Shown here: positions 35,395 through 40,386 of the stretch, one piece after another
Numbering within the stretch: position 1 is the stretch's first letter
Layout of the letters: each line of letters starts with the position of its first letter
DNA from: Gemmatales bacterium
GTDB lineage: Bacteria; Planctomycetota; Planctomycetia; Gemmatales; HRBIN36
Assembly (NCBI GenBank): GCA_041640595.1
Contig: JBEPZY010000005.1
Coordinates: 273,160-337,159 of the forward strand
Length of the DNA: 64,000 bases
Direction of reading: 5' to 3'
Made by a program: the position numbers and the translations under genes
Notes under the pieces: model-generated
Database searches by the model: none
Seen by the model: only the letters and a program-made list of their open reading frames with translations
Told to the model about the DNA's origin: nothing

Positions 35395-36459
35395 ATGCCG
35401 GCCGAGCGACAGACTTTTCCGAACGGAAGCGCAGACCGCGAGCCTGCCACGTCGCATTTGCCGCTGTACTGGCTGAAGTGGCTCGGCGTCCTGGTGATGC
35501 TGGCGCTGACGGCATGTTGCGGTTTGTGGGTGCATCACACTTTTCTCGGCACTAATTTCCACGCAGTTGTGCCGGGCAAGATTTACCGGAGTGCCCAGCT
35601 GGAGGCGGAAACTTTAGCGGAGATCGTTCGACGTTATGGTCTGCGTAGCGTCATCAACCTCCGCGGGTGCTGCCCGGAGTTTGACTGGTACCAGCAGGAA
35701 CGCCAGACCCTGCAAAGCTTGAACGTGCGGCAGTACGACATCCGCTTTTCTTACCGAGCTCCGCCACCGGTGCCGGAACTTAGAAATTTAGTTCGGGTGT
35801 TATCGGACTGCGAAAGACCGGTGCTGCTCCATTGCCGACGCGGTGCTGACCGAACGGGACTAGCTTCGGCCATCGCACTGATATGCGAAAACGAGAGTTT
35901 GGAGGTTGCTCGGAAACAATTGTCGCCTTTTTATGGCTGGTTTCCTGCAGGTGGCCCCGAGCGATTGGCCGAGGTGCTCGACTGGTACGCGGACTGGCTG
36001 AAAAAATTGCAGCTTGCGTCAAGCCGCGAAGTTTTTGCTCTCTGGGTTGAGGAACACTATAAACCGGGACATCTCTGGGCCGAACTTGAACCACTTTCCG
36101 TTCCCGATCGCTGGCGAGTAGGGGAGACGGTAGCGGCGCGATTCCGAGTACACAATCGCAGTGATTTTTGCTGGCGGTTCCGCATTACGCCGCGTGTCGG
36201 TGTGCATCTGCGAGCCTGGCTGTTACCGGGGGACATAGAAGTGCGTGACCCGGCGGAGTTGGCTGGTTTGCCCAGCGATGCGGCGGGGTTCTTCAACACG
36301 ACCGTCGCTCCGGGGGAAAGCCTGGAGATAACGTTACCGCTACCGCGTTCCGATCGGGCCGGAAAGTTCGTGCTGCTTGTGGATTTGGTGGATGCACACG
36401 ATGGGCCTTTTGGCGTTTATGGCTCGCCCACTTTTCGTCGCTGGGTAACTGTGGAGTAA
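35395..36459 (+). CDS. Membrane-anchored tyrosine/dual-specificity phosphatase family protein with C-terminal Ig-like region
   Basis: NFHAVVPGKIYRSAQ, INLRG, active site HCRRGADRTG; N-terminal TM. Confidence 0.85.
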   Translation: MPAERQTFPNGSADREPATSHLPLYWLKWLGVLVMLALTACCGLWVHHTFLGTNFHAVVPGKIYRSAQLEAETLAEIVRRYGLRSVINLRGCCPEFDWYQQERQTLQSLNVRQYDIRFSYRAPPPVPELRNLVRVLSDCERPVLLHCRRGADRTGLASAIALICENESLEVARKQLSPFYGWFPAGGPERLAEVLDWYADWLKKLQLASSREVFALWVEEHYKPGHLWAELEPLSVPDRWRVGETVAARFRVHNRSDFCWRFRITPRVGVHLRAWLLPGDIEVRDPAELAGLPSDAAGFFNTTVAPGESLEITLPLPRSDRAGKFVLLVDLVDAHDGPFGVYGSPTFRRWVTVE

Positions 36460-36505
36460 TGCCCACAAATGATTGCGCACATTCCTGGGCCAGGCGGGTG
36501 CGAAT

Positions 36506-37570
36506 ATGTCAATGTCGCATAAGGAATCGATATCGCTGAGCCGGTGGATCAAGTTGCTCGGTCGCTGTCTGGTGGCGTTGGGTCTATTGGGCTGGCTTTT
36601 ATCGGGCCAGCGCGGGTATCAGGTCTGGCAGATGCTGGCGCAGCTGCAAACTGTCCCGTTTTTGACGGCCTGCTTGCTTTACGGTCTGGCGCAGGTGCTG
36701 AGTAGCTGGCGGTGGCAGTGGTTGGCCCGCACGGTGACGATCGAGGCACGCTTGAGCTGGTTAGTGCGGCTGTATTTTGTCGGCATGTTTTTCAATCTGT
36801 TTTTGCCGACATCCATGGGCGGCGATTTTGTGCGCAGCTGGCTCTTAGCCCGTCGGACTCAGCGGCATGAACTGCGTCATGCGGTGCTGAGTGTCCTGAG
36901 CGAGCGGCTCAACGGACTCATCGCGCTATTGGTACTGGGATGCCTGGCCAGTTTGTCGGTGGTCGGTCGCTTACCACTCTGGCAGGTAGCAGTCATGTGG
37001 AGCCTGGTACTTAGCAGCATTCTGCTGCTGGTTCTCTTGCCGATCCTGGGGAAACGGTTGGTTCGCCTGGCCAGTCTGGCCCAGGCCCTGAGCATCTCCG
37101 CCCAACAACTGCCGGTCTGGTGGCGGGCGTTTCTGGTATCGCTGCTGGTGCAGCTGGCGGCGGTCGTTCAGGTTTGGCTGGTGGCTAACGCTTTGCACCT
37201 GCATATATCGCTGGCGGTGTTGGCGGTTGTAGTGCCCCTGGTGACCGTAGCCAGTCTGATCCCGGTCAGCATTGCCGGACTGGGATTGCGAGAAGGGACT
37301 TTGATGCTATTGTTAGGGCCGCTGGGTGTGTCGGCGACGGAAGCGGTTTCCCTGGGTCTGGGCTGGCTGGCCATGCAAGGGGTAACCAGTCTGGTCGGCC
37401 TACCACTCTGGCTCACCCTGCCGGAAACCGCATCGCTATCCTCCCAGACAAGCCCTTCTGGCGAACATTCCCAGGGCAGTCGGGCATTCAGGCACGGAGA
37501 ATTCACTCATGGACGTCTCGGTGGTGATTCCCATCAAGGACGAGAAGGACAATCTGCCGTTGCTGCATGA
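36506..37570 (+). CDS. Lysylphosphatidylglycerol synthase TM-domain (UPF0104, flippase-like) protein
   Basis: RW...FFNLFLPTSMGGD...ER...IPVSIAGLGLRE. Confidence 0.87.
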   Translation: MSMSHKESISLSRWIKLLGRCLVALGLLGWLLSGQRGYQVWQMLAQLQTVPFLTACLLYGLAQVLSSWRWQWLARTVTIEARLSWLVRLYFVGMFFNLFLPTSMGGDFVRSWLLARRTQRHELRHAVLSVLSERLNGLIALLVLGCLASLSVVGRLPLWQVAVMWSLVLSSILLLVLLPILGKRLVRLASLAQALSISAQQLPVWWRAFLVSLLVQLAAVVQVWLVANALHLHISLAVLAVVVPLVTVASLIPVSIAGLGLREGTLMLLLGPLGVSATEAVSLGLGWLAMQGVTSLVGLPLWLTLPETASLSSQTSPSGEHSQGSRAFRHGEFTHGRLGGDSHQGREGQSAVAA

Positions 37571-38483
37571 CCAATTGCTGCGCGCCCTGGAACCGACCGG
37601 CTGGCAATTTGAGCTGATTTTTGTGGACGACGGCAGTACCGACGGCTCGAGCGAAGTTCTGGAACAGCTGGCGTTACAGGATGCCCGAGTCAAAGTGGTG
37701 CAGTTGACCAGAAACTTTGGCCAGACACCTGCTATGCGGGCCGGGATCGATCATGCTCTGGGCGAGATTGTGGTTACTATGGACGGCGACCTGCAGAACG
37801 ATCCTGCAGACATTCCTGTGCTGGTTGGCTATCTTCGGGAAGGTTATGACGTGGTTTTAGGCTGGCGGAAAGAGCGGCAGGATGCCCTGCTGGTCCGCAA
37901 AATTCCCAGCTGGATCGCCAATTGGCTGATTCGGCGGGTAACCCATTCCAGCGTTCGTGACCTGGGTTGCACCCTCCGGGCTATGCGTCGTGAAATTGCC
38001 CTGGAGTTGCCTCAATACGGCGAGATGCACCGATTTATTTCTGTGCTGCTGCAAAATAGTGGCTACCGCATCCTGCAGGTTCCGGTTCGCCATCATCCTC
38101 GCCGATTCGGGCAGACCAAATATTCTCTGACACGGACCGTGCGCGTGCTGCTGGACTTGATCACCGTGCGGTTTCTGCAAGCGTATCTGACCCGACCGAT
38201 GCACGTGTTTGGGCTCAGTGGCATGCTGTGCATGGTCGGGAGCTTCGTCAGCCTGAGCGTGGCGTTATTGCAGAAGCTCGTCTGGGCAGAACGGCTCAAC
38301 CGCAACCCGCTCGTTCTGCTGAGTGTATTGCTCGTGGTAGTGGGAGTGCAATTTATCTCGCTGGGGCTGATCGGCGAAGTGCTGACACGCACTTATTTCG
38401 AAAGCCAGGGAAAAACCGCTTACCGCGTGCGGCGGACAATCAACATAGCAACGGTTCCGAGCAGTCGGGCTCGCGCTGCCTGA
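37509..38483 (+). CDS. Glycosyltransferase family 2 (polyprenol-phosphate glycosyltransferase-like)
   Basis: SVVIP, VDDGSTDGS, RNFGQ, MDGDLQNDP, two C-terminal TMs. Confidence 0.92.
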   Translation: MDVSVVIPIKDEKDNLPLLHDQLLRALEPTGWQFELIFVDDGSTDGSSEVLEQLALQDARVKVVQLTRNFGQTPAMRAGIDHALGEIVVTMDGDLQNDPADIPVLVGYLREGYDVVLGWRKERQDALLVRKIPSWIANWLIRRVTHSSVRDLGCTLRAMRREIALELPQYGEMHRFISVLLQNSGYRILQVPVRHHPRRFGQTKYSLTRTVRVLLDLITVRFLQAYLTRPMHVFGLSGMLCMVGSFVSLSVALLQKLVWAERLNRNPLVLLSVLLVVVGVQFISLGLIGEVLTRTYFESQGKTAYRVRRTINIATVPSSRARAA

Positions 38484-38548
38484 GCTGTTTCGGGCTCGCG
38501 CTGGTTGAGCGGACGCAGACCGGCAAGAAAAATTTTTGCCGTTTTTTG

Positions 38549-38577
38549 GTGGACATTAGCTTTGTTGGGGAATAAAA
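38549..38577 (+). promoter_or_regulatory. Possible sigma70-like promoter for the lipoprotein array
   Basis: TGGACA-N17-TAAAAG preceded by an A/T-rich tract. Confidence 0.35.
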
Positions 38578-38674
38578 GATACGCATCAGGCATCTAGTCT
38601 ATGGACGCGCAAACCCGGCCCGGGTAGCGTGTCTGGAGTATCCCAGGGCAACACGCGAAAGGACAGGTGCAACC

Positions 38675-39007
38675 ATGAAGAAACTGCTGGCATGCTTGAT
38701 CGCGGGAGTGCTGGTATTCGGACTCGGCTGCCGCAGTGGCGAAGCTACTAAGCCGTCGCCCGCTAAGGACAAAGGCACACCAGGCAAACCAGAACCGCCC
38801 AAGACCGAACCCAAGCCTACGCCAACGCAAACGAAGCCGAAAGAAGAACCGAAGTCTCCGGACAAGAAAGAACCGGAACCTAAGAAGGAACCAGAGCCTA
38901 AGAAGCAACCAGAACCTAAGTCCGAGGACAAGAAGCCTCCAGAGAAGAAGCCCGAAGGCGAGAAGAAGCCTGGCGATGAAAAGAAGGCTAACGGAGAAAA
39001 GAAGTAG
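38675..39007 (+). CDS. Small lipoprotein, Pro/Lys/Glu-rich (110 aa)
   Basis: MKKLLACLIAGVLVFGLG-C lipobox; KKEPEP repeats; AGG RBS. Confidence 0.85.
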   Translation: MKKLLACLIAGVLVFGLGCRSGEATKPSPAKDKGTPGKPEPPKTEPKPTPTQTKPKEEPKSPDKKEPEPKKEPEPKKQPEPKSEDKKPPEKKPEGEKKPGDEKKANGEKK

Positions 39008-39151
39008 GACTGACCTCACATAATGCGAACCTGTGCAAAGCTGCACAAACGGGCTTCGCGCAATTGCTGACTTTCGCAGGACATTTGCCGGCGGAGTGGT
39101 TCCGCAGGCAACACATAGATTGGGAACCATCAAAAACGAAAGGAGCAGACC

Positions 39152-39295
39152 ATGAAGAAACTGCTGAGCGCTTTGCTGGTGGCATTGCTGGGCTTGGCCA
39201 TCATTGGCTGCGGTGGCGGTGAAAGCAAGCCAGCCGGTGGTGGCGGTGGCGGCGGTGGTGGCGGCACCCCCGGCGCTAAACCGGCCGGGAAGTGA
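39152..39295 (+). CDS. Tiny lipoprotein (47 aa), poly-Gly
   Basis: AAGGAG RBS; MKKLLSALLVALLGLAIIG-CGGGESKPAGGGGGGGGGGTPGAKPAGK. Below the ORF-track cutoff. Confidence 0.8.
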   Translation: MKKLLSALLVALLGLAIIGCGGGESKPAGGGGGGGGGGTPGAKPAGK

Positions 39296-39378
39296 CAGTT
39301 GCCTAGTCTAATTCCTGCCTTGTGAGTGGTCATGCCTGAACGACCGAGCAAACTTTTGGCCGAATGGAGCTCAAAGCC

Positions 39379-39543
39379 ATGCGCACGATTATTACTGCAG
39401 TGCTACTCGCAACATTGACGATTGCTGGCTTGGGCTGCGGCGGTGGAAGCAAGCCACCTGCTCCTACTGGTGGAGGTGGTACTGCTGCCGGCACGGAGAA
39501 TACAGGCCCGCCGGGCATCACTCCGAGTTATCCCAAACCGTAG
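39379..39543 (+). CDS. Tiny lipoprotein (54 aa)
   Basis: GGAG RBS; MRTIITAVLLATLTIAGLG-CGGGSKPPAPTGGGGTAAGTENTGPPGITPSYPKP. Confidence 0.78.
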   Translation: MRTIITAVLLATLTIAGLGCGGGSKPPAPTGGGGTAAGTENTGPPGITPSYPKP

Positions 39544-39696
39544 CCGGAATTGTGCTCGATTCGTCTCGGTCTCCCGATGTGGCCATCGGAAGGTGCTGAA
39601 CTCGTGGGCACTGGATGGCCACTCCTTGCAATAGTGGTGCCGCAAACTGGTCCTTCCGACTGCTCCGAAAGATGATTTCCCAGGAGGGAGTGTGCT

Positions 39697-39837
39697 ATGA
39701 AATATTGGCTAACGGCAATTTTAGTTGTGCTGATGTGCTGGGCTTTGGTCGGATGCGGTGGTGACAGTGGCAAACCACCACCTCCGGCGCCTGGTGGTGG
39801 CACACCTGCAACCCCAGGTACCAGTGCTACCGGATAA
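39697..39837 (+). CDS. Tiny lipoprotein (46 aa)
   Basis: AGGAGG RBS; MKYWLTAILVVLMCWALVG-CGGDSGKPPPPAPGGGTPATPGTSATG. Confidence 0.8.
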   Translation: MKYWLTAILVVLMCWALVGCGGDSGKPPPPAPGGGTPATPGTSATG

Positions 39838-40386
39838 GCGGGTCTCGCAACTGCCTGCACCAGGATTGAGAAATTCGCTTTTGCATTGCCGGGGCTGTGC
39901 TCTGCCGTGGATTAGCTAAGTGCCTCAGACAGGTGGAGCCGAAGACGTTCGACTTCACCTGAACCAAGTATGCGATAAGCAGAGCGCACGCCCCGGCTTG
40001 TCTATTTTGAGCCACGTGTATTATGCCGCTCGAATTTGGTCATCGGCGACAGATTCGTGCTTTACAGAAACGAGCATCCTCTGCGAGCGGGTTTCAATCC
40101 CACTGGTAACTCGGAAACAGGCTTGCTGTTTTTGTATTCGGCCTATTCTGCTGCACAAGCAAATGTTCAAACCTTGTCCCGTCCGGCCTTTTGCGGTCTT
40201 AGTGTTTTTGCTTAGCTGTGGAAAATTGCTTAGGGCTAGCTTCCGCGAACTGTGCTGCTTGGGGCACGAGTGTTGTGCTTATTATGACGTAAATTTCGCT
40301 GCTTGCACTATGTCCCTGGGAGAACATTGCCAGGAGTCGTAGGATAATTCCACAGGAAATTGATGAGGATCAAGGAGGCGAGGACG

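What the first reader, a model, noticed from the sequence alone, without database searches (positions are those of the whole stretch)
38675..39837. Hidden tandem array of four paralogous mini-lipoprotein genes
Seen: four co-oriented ORFs (110, 47, 54 and 46 aa), each with an RBS and a type II signal peptide ending in a lipobox (FGLG-C, AIIG-C, AGLG-C, ALVG-C). In the three tiny ORFs, which the ORF track misses, the Cys is always residue 20. Their mature parts are only 27-35 residues and start alike: CGGGESKP, CGGGSKP, CGGDSGKP (CRSGEATKP in the long one), followed by Gly/Pro/Thr tails. Signal sequences have diverged while length and the CGG-x-S-KP motif are kept, which argues for selection. 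Established: Lgt/Lsp would turn these into lipid-anchored peptides. Inference: with no folded domain, they may be a family of ribosomally made lipopeptides acting as envelope tethers, surface brush, surfactant or modification substrates.
Basis: partly seen in the sequence, partly recalled or inferred. Interest (0 to 1): 0.85.

Follow-up and report, generated by a model that had tools for sequence, protein, structure and literature searches.

The report
Planctomycete stress-sigma mini-lipoprotein operon
Four tiny, mostly overlooked genes encode lipid-anchored, unfolded peptides; relatives recur across a group of bacteria that lack the usual cell-wall genes, behind a promoter that points to one stress regulator, so they are good candidates for what keeps these cells' outer membrane stable.

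Summary
The four ORFs are real (4 against at most 2 in 1,546 control windows), and the finding is larger than reported. Genes 1 and 2 are the conserved core of an unannotated operon in Gemmatales: tandem arrays in 59 of 62 and 11 of 12 inspected loci, with mostly single copies in other Planctomycetia. Genes 3-4 were seen only in this genus and vary between strains. A promoter at 38568-38594 (GGGAATAA-N13/14-GYATC) precedes 62 of 71 loci (null 0.7). It also precedes all 32 orthologues of one ECF sigma factor, 18 of which sit back-to-back with such a gene. It matches mapped ECF26 promoters. Tails are unconserved, free of aromatics and mostly end in Lys (33 of 42). A Braun-type link to peptidoglycan is excluded: no PBP or L,D-transpeptidase was found. 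The CGGxSKP motif is not family-wide and no modifying enzyme is linked. Best reading: sigma-controlled, lipid-anchored disordered peptides that stabilise the envelope, like H. pylori HP0135. Function is inferred, not shown.

The parts
38521..38541 (+). Terminator-like hairpin with T run closing the upstream glycosyltransferase operon; separates it from the array
   Evidence: consensus scan; 4 sites found against 2.6 expected, so weak alone
38568..38594 (+). ECF-type promoter: -35 GGGAATAA, 14-nt spacer, -10 GCATC; predicted start near 38603
   Evidence: compared with the mapped S. meliloti RpoE1 promoter in PMC6180224
38603..38634 (+). Hairpin at the predicted 5' end of the mRNA; putative stabiliser
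   Evidence: whole leader z about 0; first 45 nt z -1.9; kept in 3 genomes, 2 of 12 pairs with compensatory change; weak
38675..39007 (+). Gene 1, type B: 110-aa prolipoprotein, Cys19, 92-aa Lys/Glu/Pro repeat tail ending in Lys
39091..39105 (+). Short palindrome or hairpin conserved between genes 1 and 2 in all four genomes of the genus; role unknown
39152..39295 (+). Gene 2, type A: 47-aa prolipoprotein, Cys20, 28-aa Gly-rich tail ending in Lys; the order-wide core member
39379..39543 (+). Gene 3: 54-aa prolipoprotein, Cys20, 35-aa Gly/Pro/Thr tail; seen only in this genus, variable between strains
39697..39837 (+). Gene 4: 46-aa prolipoprotein, Cys20, 27-aa Pro/Gly/Thr tail; seen only in this genus; its copy in G002 has a stop and a changed lipobox
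39930..39961 (+). Stem-loop after gene 4 without a U tract; possible 3' end of the operon
   Evidence: prediction only

Best explanation
The locus is an independent operon, probably the main target of a Planctomycetia-specific ECF26-like sigma factor that is held by a one-helix zinc anti-sigma. Steps: (1) The sigma factor transcribes its own operon and this one from GGGAATAA-N13/14-GYATC (strongly inferred from conservation). (2) The precursors are exported by Sec and processed by Lgt, Lsp and Lnt into triacylated peptides (established pathway; enzymes shown present). (3) With no Asp at +2 they go by Lol to the inner leaflet of the outer membrane (inferred from the E. coli rule, recalled). (4) There they act in bulk, not through a folded domain or a motif: a lipid anchor with a short (type A) or long (type B) hydrophilic disordered tail that packs and stabilises the membrane or spaces the periplasm in a cell that lacks peptidoglycan synthesis, as HP0135 stabilises the H. 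pylori outer membrane (inferred by analogy). The terminal Lys most simply raises stability and abundance.
For: Real and conserved. Promoter in 62 of 71 upstream regions, null mean 0.67 and maximum 4. Test anchored on the sigma factor: 32 of 32 orthologues carry the site before their own gene, and 18 of 32 have a divergent small disordered lipoprotein gene, all 18 with their own site; 12 of the 18 genomes' loci had not been inspected before and 9 lie outside Gemmatales. In G000 the array's site is the top-scoring one and the sigma gene has one too. Tails: no aromatic residue or Cys in 42 type A and 37 type B tails, 2-5% hydrophobic, no conserved tail motif. Lgt, Lsp, Lnt present. In the published T. 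immobilis proteome table (PMC8567305, supplement rows) both array members are called Sec/SPII by SignalP-5, one (VTS08334.1) is detected only in the Triton-soluble membrane fraction, and an ECF sigma and a zf-HC2 gene lie next to them. No PBP transpeptidase in 59 of 61 Gemmatales genomes. HP0135 is a 44-aa precursor with a 28-aa mature part, a disordered C-terminus and a conserved terminal Lys, not murein-linked, and its deletion causes vesiculation (PMC11768039, abstract and passages). Terminal Lys raises protein level (PMC7246954, abstract).
Against: No direct evidence of function, membrane location or abundance for any of the window's four products. The T. immobilis A/B-type member (VTS08332.1) was not detected in any fraction; its Lys-rich tail may escape trypsin MS, but that is my inference. 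RNA data are contigs only and cannot show level or strand; run X1 looks DNA-like. The window's own site was in the matrix training set, and the motif is not enriched genome-wide in G000 (48 sites against 37-59 for control spacers). A stress-sigma target could be inducible and minor instead of structural. The type C member of Gemmataceae has a conserved motif, which suggests a specific partner. The sigma orthologue was not found in 19 of 19 genomes of family f5 and in many f4 genomes, and 14 of 32 sigma loci have no adjacent lipoprotein gene. Kin are not independent, so the counts overstate.
Confidence: 0.45

Rival explanations
1. Covalent tether to a protein wall: the N-terminal lipid sits in the outer membrane and the C-terminal Lys is cross-linked (isopeptide, for example by a transglutaminase-like enzyme) to the YTV-type protein sacculus. 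This would be Lpp logic without peptidoglycan, with short (A) and long (B) spacers.
For: Terminal Lys in 33 of 42 type A (13% Lys in the preceding 10 residues) and 29 of 37 type B (35%), against 5.8% of 1,969 long ORFs and 10 of 65 larger lipoprotein-like ORFs of G000; the bias is seen in Gemmatales and not in other orders (3 of 15). G000 has YTV repeats at three loci and three transglutaminase-core genes. No known OM tether was detected in Planctomycetes (bioRxiv 2021.05.31.446380, passage).
Against: Window genes 3 and 4 end in Pro and Gly, and gene 2 of G001 and G003 has Lys second to last. No cross-linking enzyme is linked to the array. The one detected member was Triton-extractable and absent from the SDS fraction that holds the YTV proteins. 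Terminal Lys is generally favoured in bacteria, and HP0135 has it without a murein link.
Confidence: 0.15
2. Feedback signal: the lipopeptides report on lipoprotein maturation or trafficking and bind the anti-sigma's periplasmic domain to switch the sigma factor off, closing a loop whose only outputs are its own parts.
For: The predicted regulon in G000 is little more than the sigma operon and the array, since almost all other sites lie inside genes. The anti-sigma has a folded periplasmic domain that weakly resembles the C-terminal domain of MucB/RseB (Z 6.8 and 6.0, 84-88 residues aligned), a domain that binds a disordered peptide (recalled). Type C has a conserved linear motif. A lipoprotein gene beside ECF26 sigmas is widely conserved.
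Against: Types A and B have no conserved tail sequence. Type C was not found in the window's family. Z under 8 may reflect only a common fold (note). Copy-number growth to 4-5 genes fits a bulk role better.
Confidence: 0.15
3. Surface brush or variable coat: the peptides are surface-exposed, perhaps O-glycosylated on Ser/Thr, and shield the cell from phage, predators or desiccation.
For: Tails are hypervariable. Gly-tract length differs among alleles. Genes 3-4 are skipped or replaced in contigs of 3 of 4 runs (joint 39446-39888). G002 has an extra gene 2 and a broken gene 4. Type A tails are 30% Ser+Thr across the order.
Against: Window gene 2 has one Ser and one Thr in its tail. No glycosyltransferase or exporter is linked. 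Low-complexity tails vary fast without diversifying selection. Tails of 11-39 residues are short beside LPS.
Confidence: 0.13
4. Ribosomally made secreted lipopeptide (surfactant or RiPP-like) with dedicated tailoring enzymes.
For: A lipid plus a short hydrophilic peptide is amphiphilic by construction; a GT2, an LPG_synthase_TM protein and a phosphatase lie upstream in the window.
Against: Those neighbours are not syntenic, a terminator-like site and an own promoter separate them, and there is no conserved core peptide.
Confidence: 0.05
5. Classical Braun lipoprotein analogue cross-linked to peptidoglycan by an L,D-transpeptidase.
For: Small size, lipobox and terminal Lys.
Against: In G000 (95% complete) no YkuD, no PBP transpeptidase, and the only Mur_ligase_M hit reads like FolC (the FolC label is my recall). 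PBP domain in only 2 of 61 Gemmatales genomes, both weak partial hits. No LPP Pfam match. Gemmataceae are reported to lack most peptidoglycan genes.
Confidence: 0.02

Closest known systems
Helicobacter pylori HP0135 (PMC11768039; abstract and passages read)
   Same: 44-aa precursor and 28-aa mature lipoprotein (gene 2: 47 and 28), disordered hydrophilic C-terminus, terminal Lys, no L,D-transpeptidase in the host
   Different: Reported only in Helicobacter, with a conserved C-terminal sequence, in a cell that has peptidoglycan. Here tails are unconserved, genes are tandem, an ECF promoter precedes them and peptidoglycan synthesis was not found. Homology was not tested and is not expected.
ECF26/ECF207 sigma modules, e.g. 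S. meliloti SMc01418-rpoE1-ecfR1 (PMC6180224 passages; PMC7826278 supplement passages)
   Same: -35 GGAATAAA with a GTC/ATC-type -10; the mapped RpoE1 promoter has the same layout; one-helix anti-sigma with HX3CX2C at +1; a putative lipoprotein gene as the strongest target
   Different: SMc01418 is co-transcribed upstream of the sigma gene and (recalled) has a folded repeat domain. Here the targets are domain-less peptides, divergent from the sigma gene or, as in this genus, unlinked (sigma on contig C1). The ECF group was not assigned by phylogeny.
Braun's lipoprotein Lpp (PF04728)
   Same: Small lipoprotein, N-terminal acyl-Cys, C-terminal Lys
   Different: No helical coiled coil, no Pfam match, and neither peptidoglycan synthesis nor an L,D-transpeptidase was found
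Borrelia Lp6.6 (PMC2754595, passages read); Neisseria H.8/Lip (recalled); PG1828-family lipoproteins and E. coli Asr (weak NCBIfam hits below cut-off)
   Same: Small, low-complexity, abundant envelope proteins; Lp6.6 is a subsurface outer-membrane lipoprotein
   Different: No match at curated cut-offs (Asr 21.5 bits against 50; PG1828 16.7-16.9 against 50). Asr is not lipid-anchored (recalled).
Entericidin EcnA/EcnB (recalled)
   Same: Tandem genes for lipoproteins of 41-48 aa under stress-sigma control
   Different: Entericidins have amphipathic helical tails and a toxin-antidote relation; these tails are Gly/Pro/Lys-rich and gave no entericidin Pfam hit

Membership tests
Bacterial lipoprotein (Sec/SPII) | Basic n-region, hydrophobic h-region, lipobox with Cys | tested here: met
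   Sequence and my own filter, not SignalP; G-C invariant in 42 orthologues; published SignalP-5 calls for the T. immobilis members
Bacterial lipoprotein (Sec/SPII) | Lgt, Lsp and Lnt in the genome | tested here: met
Bacterial lipoprotein (Sec/SPII) | Actual lipidation and membrane location | not testable with these tools
   Only indirect: VTS08334.1 in the Triton-soluble fraction
Braun's lipoprotein Lpp | LPP domain, helical coiled coil | tested here: not met
   No Pfam family for the four proteins; no LPP hit among 42 orthologues; Gly/Pro-rich tails
Braun's lipoprotein Lpp | C-terminal Lys | tested here: met
   Genes 1 and 2 yes, genes 3 and 4 no; 33 of 42 type A, 29 of 37 type B
Braun's lipoprotein Lpp | Peptidoglycan and an L,D-transpeptidase to link it | tested here: not met
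   Not found in G000, 95% complete; PBP domain in 2 of 61 Gemmatales genomes. Non-YkuD L,D-transpeptidase families were not searched.
HP0135-like small OM-stabilising lipoprotein | Mature part under 30 aa, disordered, terminal Lys | tested here: met
   Gene 2; disorder inferred from composition
HP0135-like small OM-stabilising lipoprotein | Conserved C-terminal sequence | tested here: not met
   No conserved tail columns in alignment A9
HP0135-like small OM-stabilising lipoprotein | Vesiculation on deletion | not testable with these tools
   Needs a mutant
ECF26/ECF207-type sigma module | Autoregulated GGAATAAA -35 promoter | tested here: met
   32 of 32 sigma loci; G000 site; literature motif
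ECF26/ECF207-type sigma module | Anti-sigma at +1 with HX3CX2C and one transmembrane helix | tested here: met
   H, C, C invariant in 31 sequences; long hydrophobic helix at 98-118 in the model; N-terminus like RsiW, Z 7.4
ECF26/ECF207-type sigma module | Placement in the ECF26 or ECF207 clade by group HMM or tree | not tested
   No group HMMs available; all specific NCBIfam sigma hits are below cut-off
Entericidin EcnAB | Entericidin domain with amphipathic helix | tested here: not met
RiPP-like lipopeptide | Linked tailoring enzymes and conserved core peptide | tested here: not met

The most novel reading that the evidence does not exclude
These peptides are the missing outer-membrane tether of peptidoglycan-free planctomycetes: lipid-anchored disordered spacers of two lengths whose terminal Lys is covalently joined to a protein (YTV-type) sacculus, induced by a dedicated envelope-stress sigma factor. 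That would be Braun-lipoprotein logic reinvented on a protein wall.
Probability: 0.15. Interest if true: 0.9.

Novelty: new variant of a known kind. Interest (0 to 1): 0.6.

Why it matters
How planctomycetes without peptidoglycan genes hold their outer membrane is open: a survey of tethering systems found none of the known ones in this phylum. This work names a small conserved operon, its probable sigma factor and its promoter, with members in cultured species (T. immobilis VTS08332.1/VTS08334.1, G. obscuriglobus GobsT_17310), so the question can be tested with one deletion and one overexpression. It also offers a promoter-based handle on an uncharacterised Planctomycetia ECF system, and shows a gene family that exact look-ups partly miss (8 of 19 distinct genes looked up were not in the protein collection with the start I gave). 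If the peptides prove dispensable, the result is a tidy new microprotein family of modest importance.

Tried and rejected
Pfam gave no family for the four proteins; the 42 gene-2 orthologues gave only weak signal-peptide-type hits; NCBIfam gave nothing family-level over cut-off for the peptides. Rfam gave two chance-level hits. The sigma-70 scan found no promoter. A named-genome scan with the first alignment could not run because no stretch was conserved enough. The ESM Atlas gave only unnamed clusters under 0.9. The scan's earlier notes returned nothing. Complex prediction of the T. immobilis anti-sigma periplasmic domain with the type C peptide gave no verdict (score 0.00); this is no evidence either way. 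Foldseek gave no match at E <= 0.001 for the anti-sigma. RNA depth is higher over the array in X2-X4, but those runs were found with this stretch and are contigs, so I do not use depth; the contig starts at 38593 (X3) and 38602 (X4) near the predicted start are only a hint. A wider regulon was not found: most pattern hits in five genomes lie in unrelated genes. The class-wide profile hit 217 of 301 genomes, but outside Gemmatales many hits are generic signal peptides, so I count only inspected loci. The 5' hairpin trend across loci is modest (mean z -1.17 in 58, against -0.24 in 47 controls). Three key papers were not held (Jogler 2012, Wiegand 2020, Mahajan 2020), nor their supplements, and they may already describe this ECF group, its promoter or cell-wall peptides. 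The ECF supplement I searched is stored cut, I saw 20 of its 23 Planctomycetes passages, and the large data sheet of PMC8567305 was unreadable. Paper searches that showed no description of the family in their listings.

Full report
Observation. The four ORFs, their lipoboxes and lengths are as described. No Pfam family matches them. My SPII filter finds 4 in the region, against at most 2 in 1,546 control windows. Source names of close homologues place the organism among Gemmatales (Planctomycetota). All three congeneric genomes carry the cassette. Substitutions in the signal regions favour codon position 3, and indels within the genes in environmental contigs keep the frame. The genes are real.

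Range. A profile of gene 2 orthologues matched 93 of 151 Gemmatales genomes. A broader one matched 7 of 7 and 67 of 71 genomes of the two families. I inspected loci from 62 genomes of family f2 (19 best-scoring, 43 picked mostly for short open frames) and 12 relatives in the window's family. Tandem arrays of two or more small disordered lipoprotein genes were present in 59 of 62 and 11 of 12; one of the 11 (G007) is doubtful, and the exception in f1 lies at a contig end. Three types recur in a mostly fixed order: B, long Lys/Glu/Pro repeats (window gene 1); A, an MKK signal with an 11-39-residue tail (gene 2); C, with the motif GKNxDxDRP. Type C was not found in the window's family; genes 3 and 4 take its place in this genus. 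In other orders 17 of 20 inspected loci held a single such gene and 3 a pair. Those lacking the promoter and sigma link may be look-alikes, not homologues. Named members include G. obscuriglobus GobsT_17310 and T. immobilis VTS08334.1.

What is conserved. Across 42 type A proteins only M-K-K and G-C are invariant. The CGGxSKP motif is therefore local, and larger G000 lipoproteins start the same way. Conserved instead are composition (no aromatic residue or Cys in A and B tails) and a terminal Lys: 33 of 42 A, 29 of 37 B, 18 of 38 C, but 3 of 15 in other orders. The background is 5.8% of long G000 ORFs and 10 of 65 larger lipoprotein-like ORFs. These sequences are kin, so binomial p-values overstate.

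Regulation. A motif first seen in the genus alignment, GGGAATAA-N13/14-G(T/C)ATC, lies upstream of 62 of 71 hand-picked first genes (null mean 0.67, maximum 4; reverse strand 12). In many relatives the array is divergent from an ECF sigma and anti-sigma pair. Anchoring on the sigma factor, I took the 30 best loci of 45 matching genomes among 81 plus 2. All 32 have the site before the sigma gene; 18 have a divergent small lipoprotein gene, each with its own site; of the other 14, 2 are cut by contig ends and 4 have a divergent site without such a gene. In G000 the sigma gene has moved to contig C1 but keeps a site, and the array's site scores highest in the genome, though it was in the training set. 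The motif is not enriched genome-wide and nearly all other hits are inside genes, so the regulon looks small. The sigma orthologue was found in 6 of 7 f6 genomes and in none of 113 genomes of other classes at E <= 1e-30, and in 0 of 19 f5 genomes. The layout matches the mapped promoter of S. meliloti RpoE1 (ECF26), whose strongest target is a putative lipoprotein gene (PMC6180224, passages), and the ECF26/ECF207 consensus (PMC7826278, supplement passages). The anti-sigma has the invariant zinc motif, one helix and a folded periplasmic domain.

Expression. Twelve of 13 listed RNA runs hold part of the stretch. I laid 4 of them; all are contigs, X1 covers the 12 kb evenly like DNA, and none can show level, strand or ends. 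One X3 contig bridges 38593-39446, across genes 1, 2 and the start of gene 3. A joint 39446-39888 in three runs shows strains in which the rest of gene 3 and gene 4 are missing or replaced. Better evidence is the published T. immobilis table: both members are called Sec/SPII, the type C protein is detected only in the Triton-soluble fraction, and the A/B-type protein (matched by mass) is not detected (PMC8567305, passages and supplement rows).

Envelope context. G000 has Lgt, Lsp and Lnt, YTV repeats and three transglutaminase-core genes. It has no detectable L,D-transpeptidase or PBP transpeptidase and one Mur_ligase_M hit that reads like FolC. The PBP domain was found in 2 of 61 Gemmatales genomes, in line with the literature. 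My first idea, an Lpp link to peptidoglycan, is thus rejected. The upstream glycosyltransferase is not linked to the array in 29 relatives, which counts against a tailored-lipopeptide reading.

Mechanism. Shown: real genes, lipoprotein anatomy, processing enzymes, conserved promoter, sigma linkage, missing peptidoglycan pathway. Inferred: transcription by that sigma factor (I put this near 0.85), outer-membrane location, and function. The lack of any tail motif in A and B, free length change and copy-number growth point to a bulk role of lipid anchor plus hydrophilic tail. H. pylori HP0135 has nearly the same anatomy as gene 2, is not murein-linked and prevents vesiculation (PMC11768039, abstract and passages); Borrelia Lp6.6 is a further abundant subsurface example (PMC2754595, passages). 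I give this 0.45. A covalent tether to a protein wall (0.15), a feedback ligand for the anti-sigma (0.15), a variable surface coat (0.13), a secreted lipopeptide (0.05) and classical Lpp (0.02) remain. Terminal Lys has a plain alternative: it raises protein level (PMC7246954, abstract).

Novelty. Small disordered envelope lipoproteins and ECF modules with a lipoprotein target are known kinds. This family has no Pfam or NCBIfam model over cut-off, and my paper searches (listings only unless named above) showed no description; three relevant papers were not held. It is a new variant of a known kind. Its interest lies in an open question: no known outer-membrane tether was detected in Planctomycetes (bioRxiv 2021.05.31.446380, passages), and this operon is a testable candidate in cultured species. 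I also read passages of PMC10632474, which did not mention such genes or an ECF factor.

Noticed in passing
L053:9390-10973 (G002, minus strand): An extra, near-identical copy of gene 2 with its upstream DNA sits before gene 1 at the contig end, and gene 4 carries an in-frame stop and a Gly-to-Arg lipobox change. Recent duplication and decay, or an assembly artefact.
   Followed up: partly
L263 (G027) and L288 (G022): The same promoter motif precedes related large proteins that look like vWA/YfbK-type lipoproteins (label recalled, not scanned) in two Gemmataceae genomes; a possible third regulon member.
   Followed up: no
G000 C1:710150-710326, C2:389147-389350, C3:88160-88363, C4:239601-239816: Other solitary small lipoprotein-like ORFs of 58-71 aa in the same genome, unrelated in tail sequence.
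   Followed up: no
L064, L075, L078 (genus g4): Additional single mini-lipoproteins ending in Lys lie divergent from or beside Ser/Thr kinase-like genes.
   Followed up: no
L073 and L083 (G012): A duplicated unit of a prepilin-type gene followed by a 49-aa lipoprotein gene.
   Followed up: no
L221:2096-2821 and L119:1685-2449: The anti-sigma matches DUF3379; its periplasmic domain weakly resembles the C-terminal domain of MucB/RseB (Z 6.8 and 6.0).
   Followed up: partly
family f5 genomes: The ECF orthologue was not found in 19 of 19 genomes, yet single small disordered lipoproteins occur there; two checked loci lack the promoter motif.
   Followed up: partly
window 35395-38483: Upstream operon of a tyrosine/dual-specificity phosphatase-like protein, an LPG_synthase_TM protein and a GT2 glycosyltransferase; probably envelope glycosylation, unlinked to the array.
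   Followed up: partly
G000 C1:434325: An intergenic promoter-like site of the same pattern 81 nt before a 442-aa membrane transporter-like gene.
   Followed up: no
window 39091-39105 and G000 C8:11991: The genus-conserved palindrome between genes 1 and 2 has one other full match in the genome.
   Followed up: no
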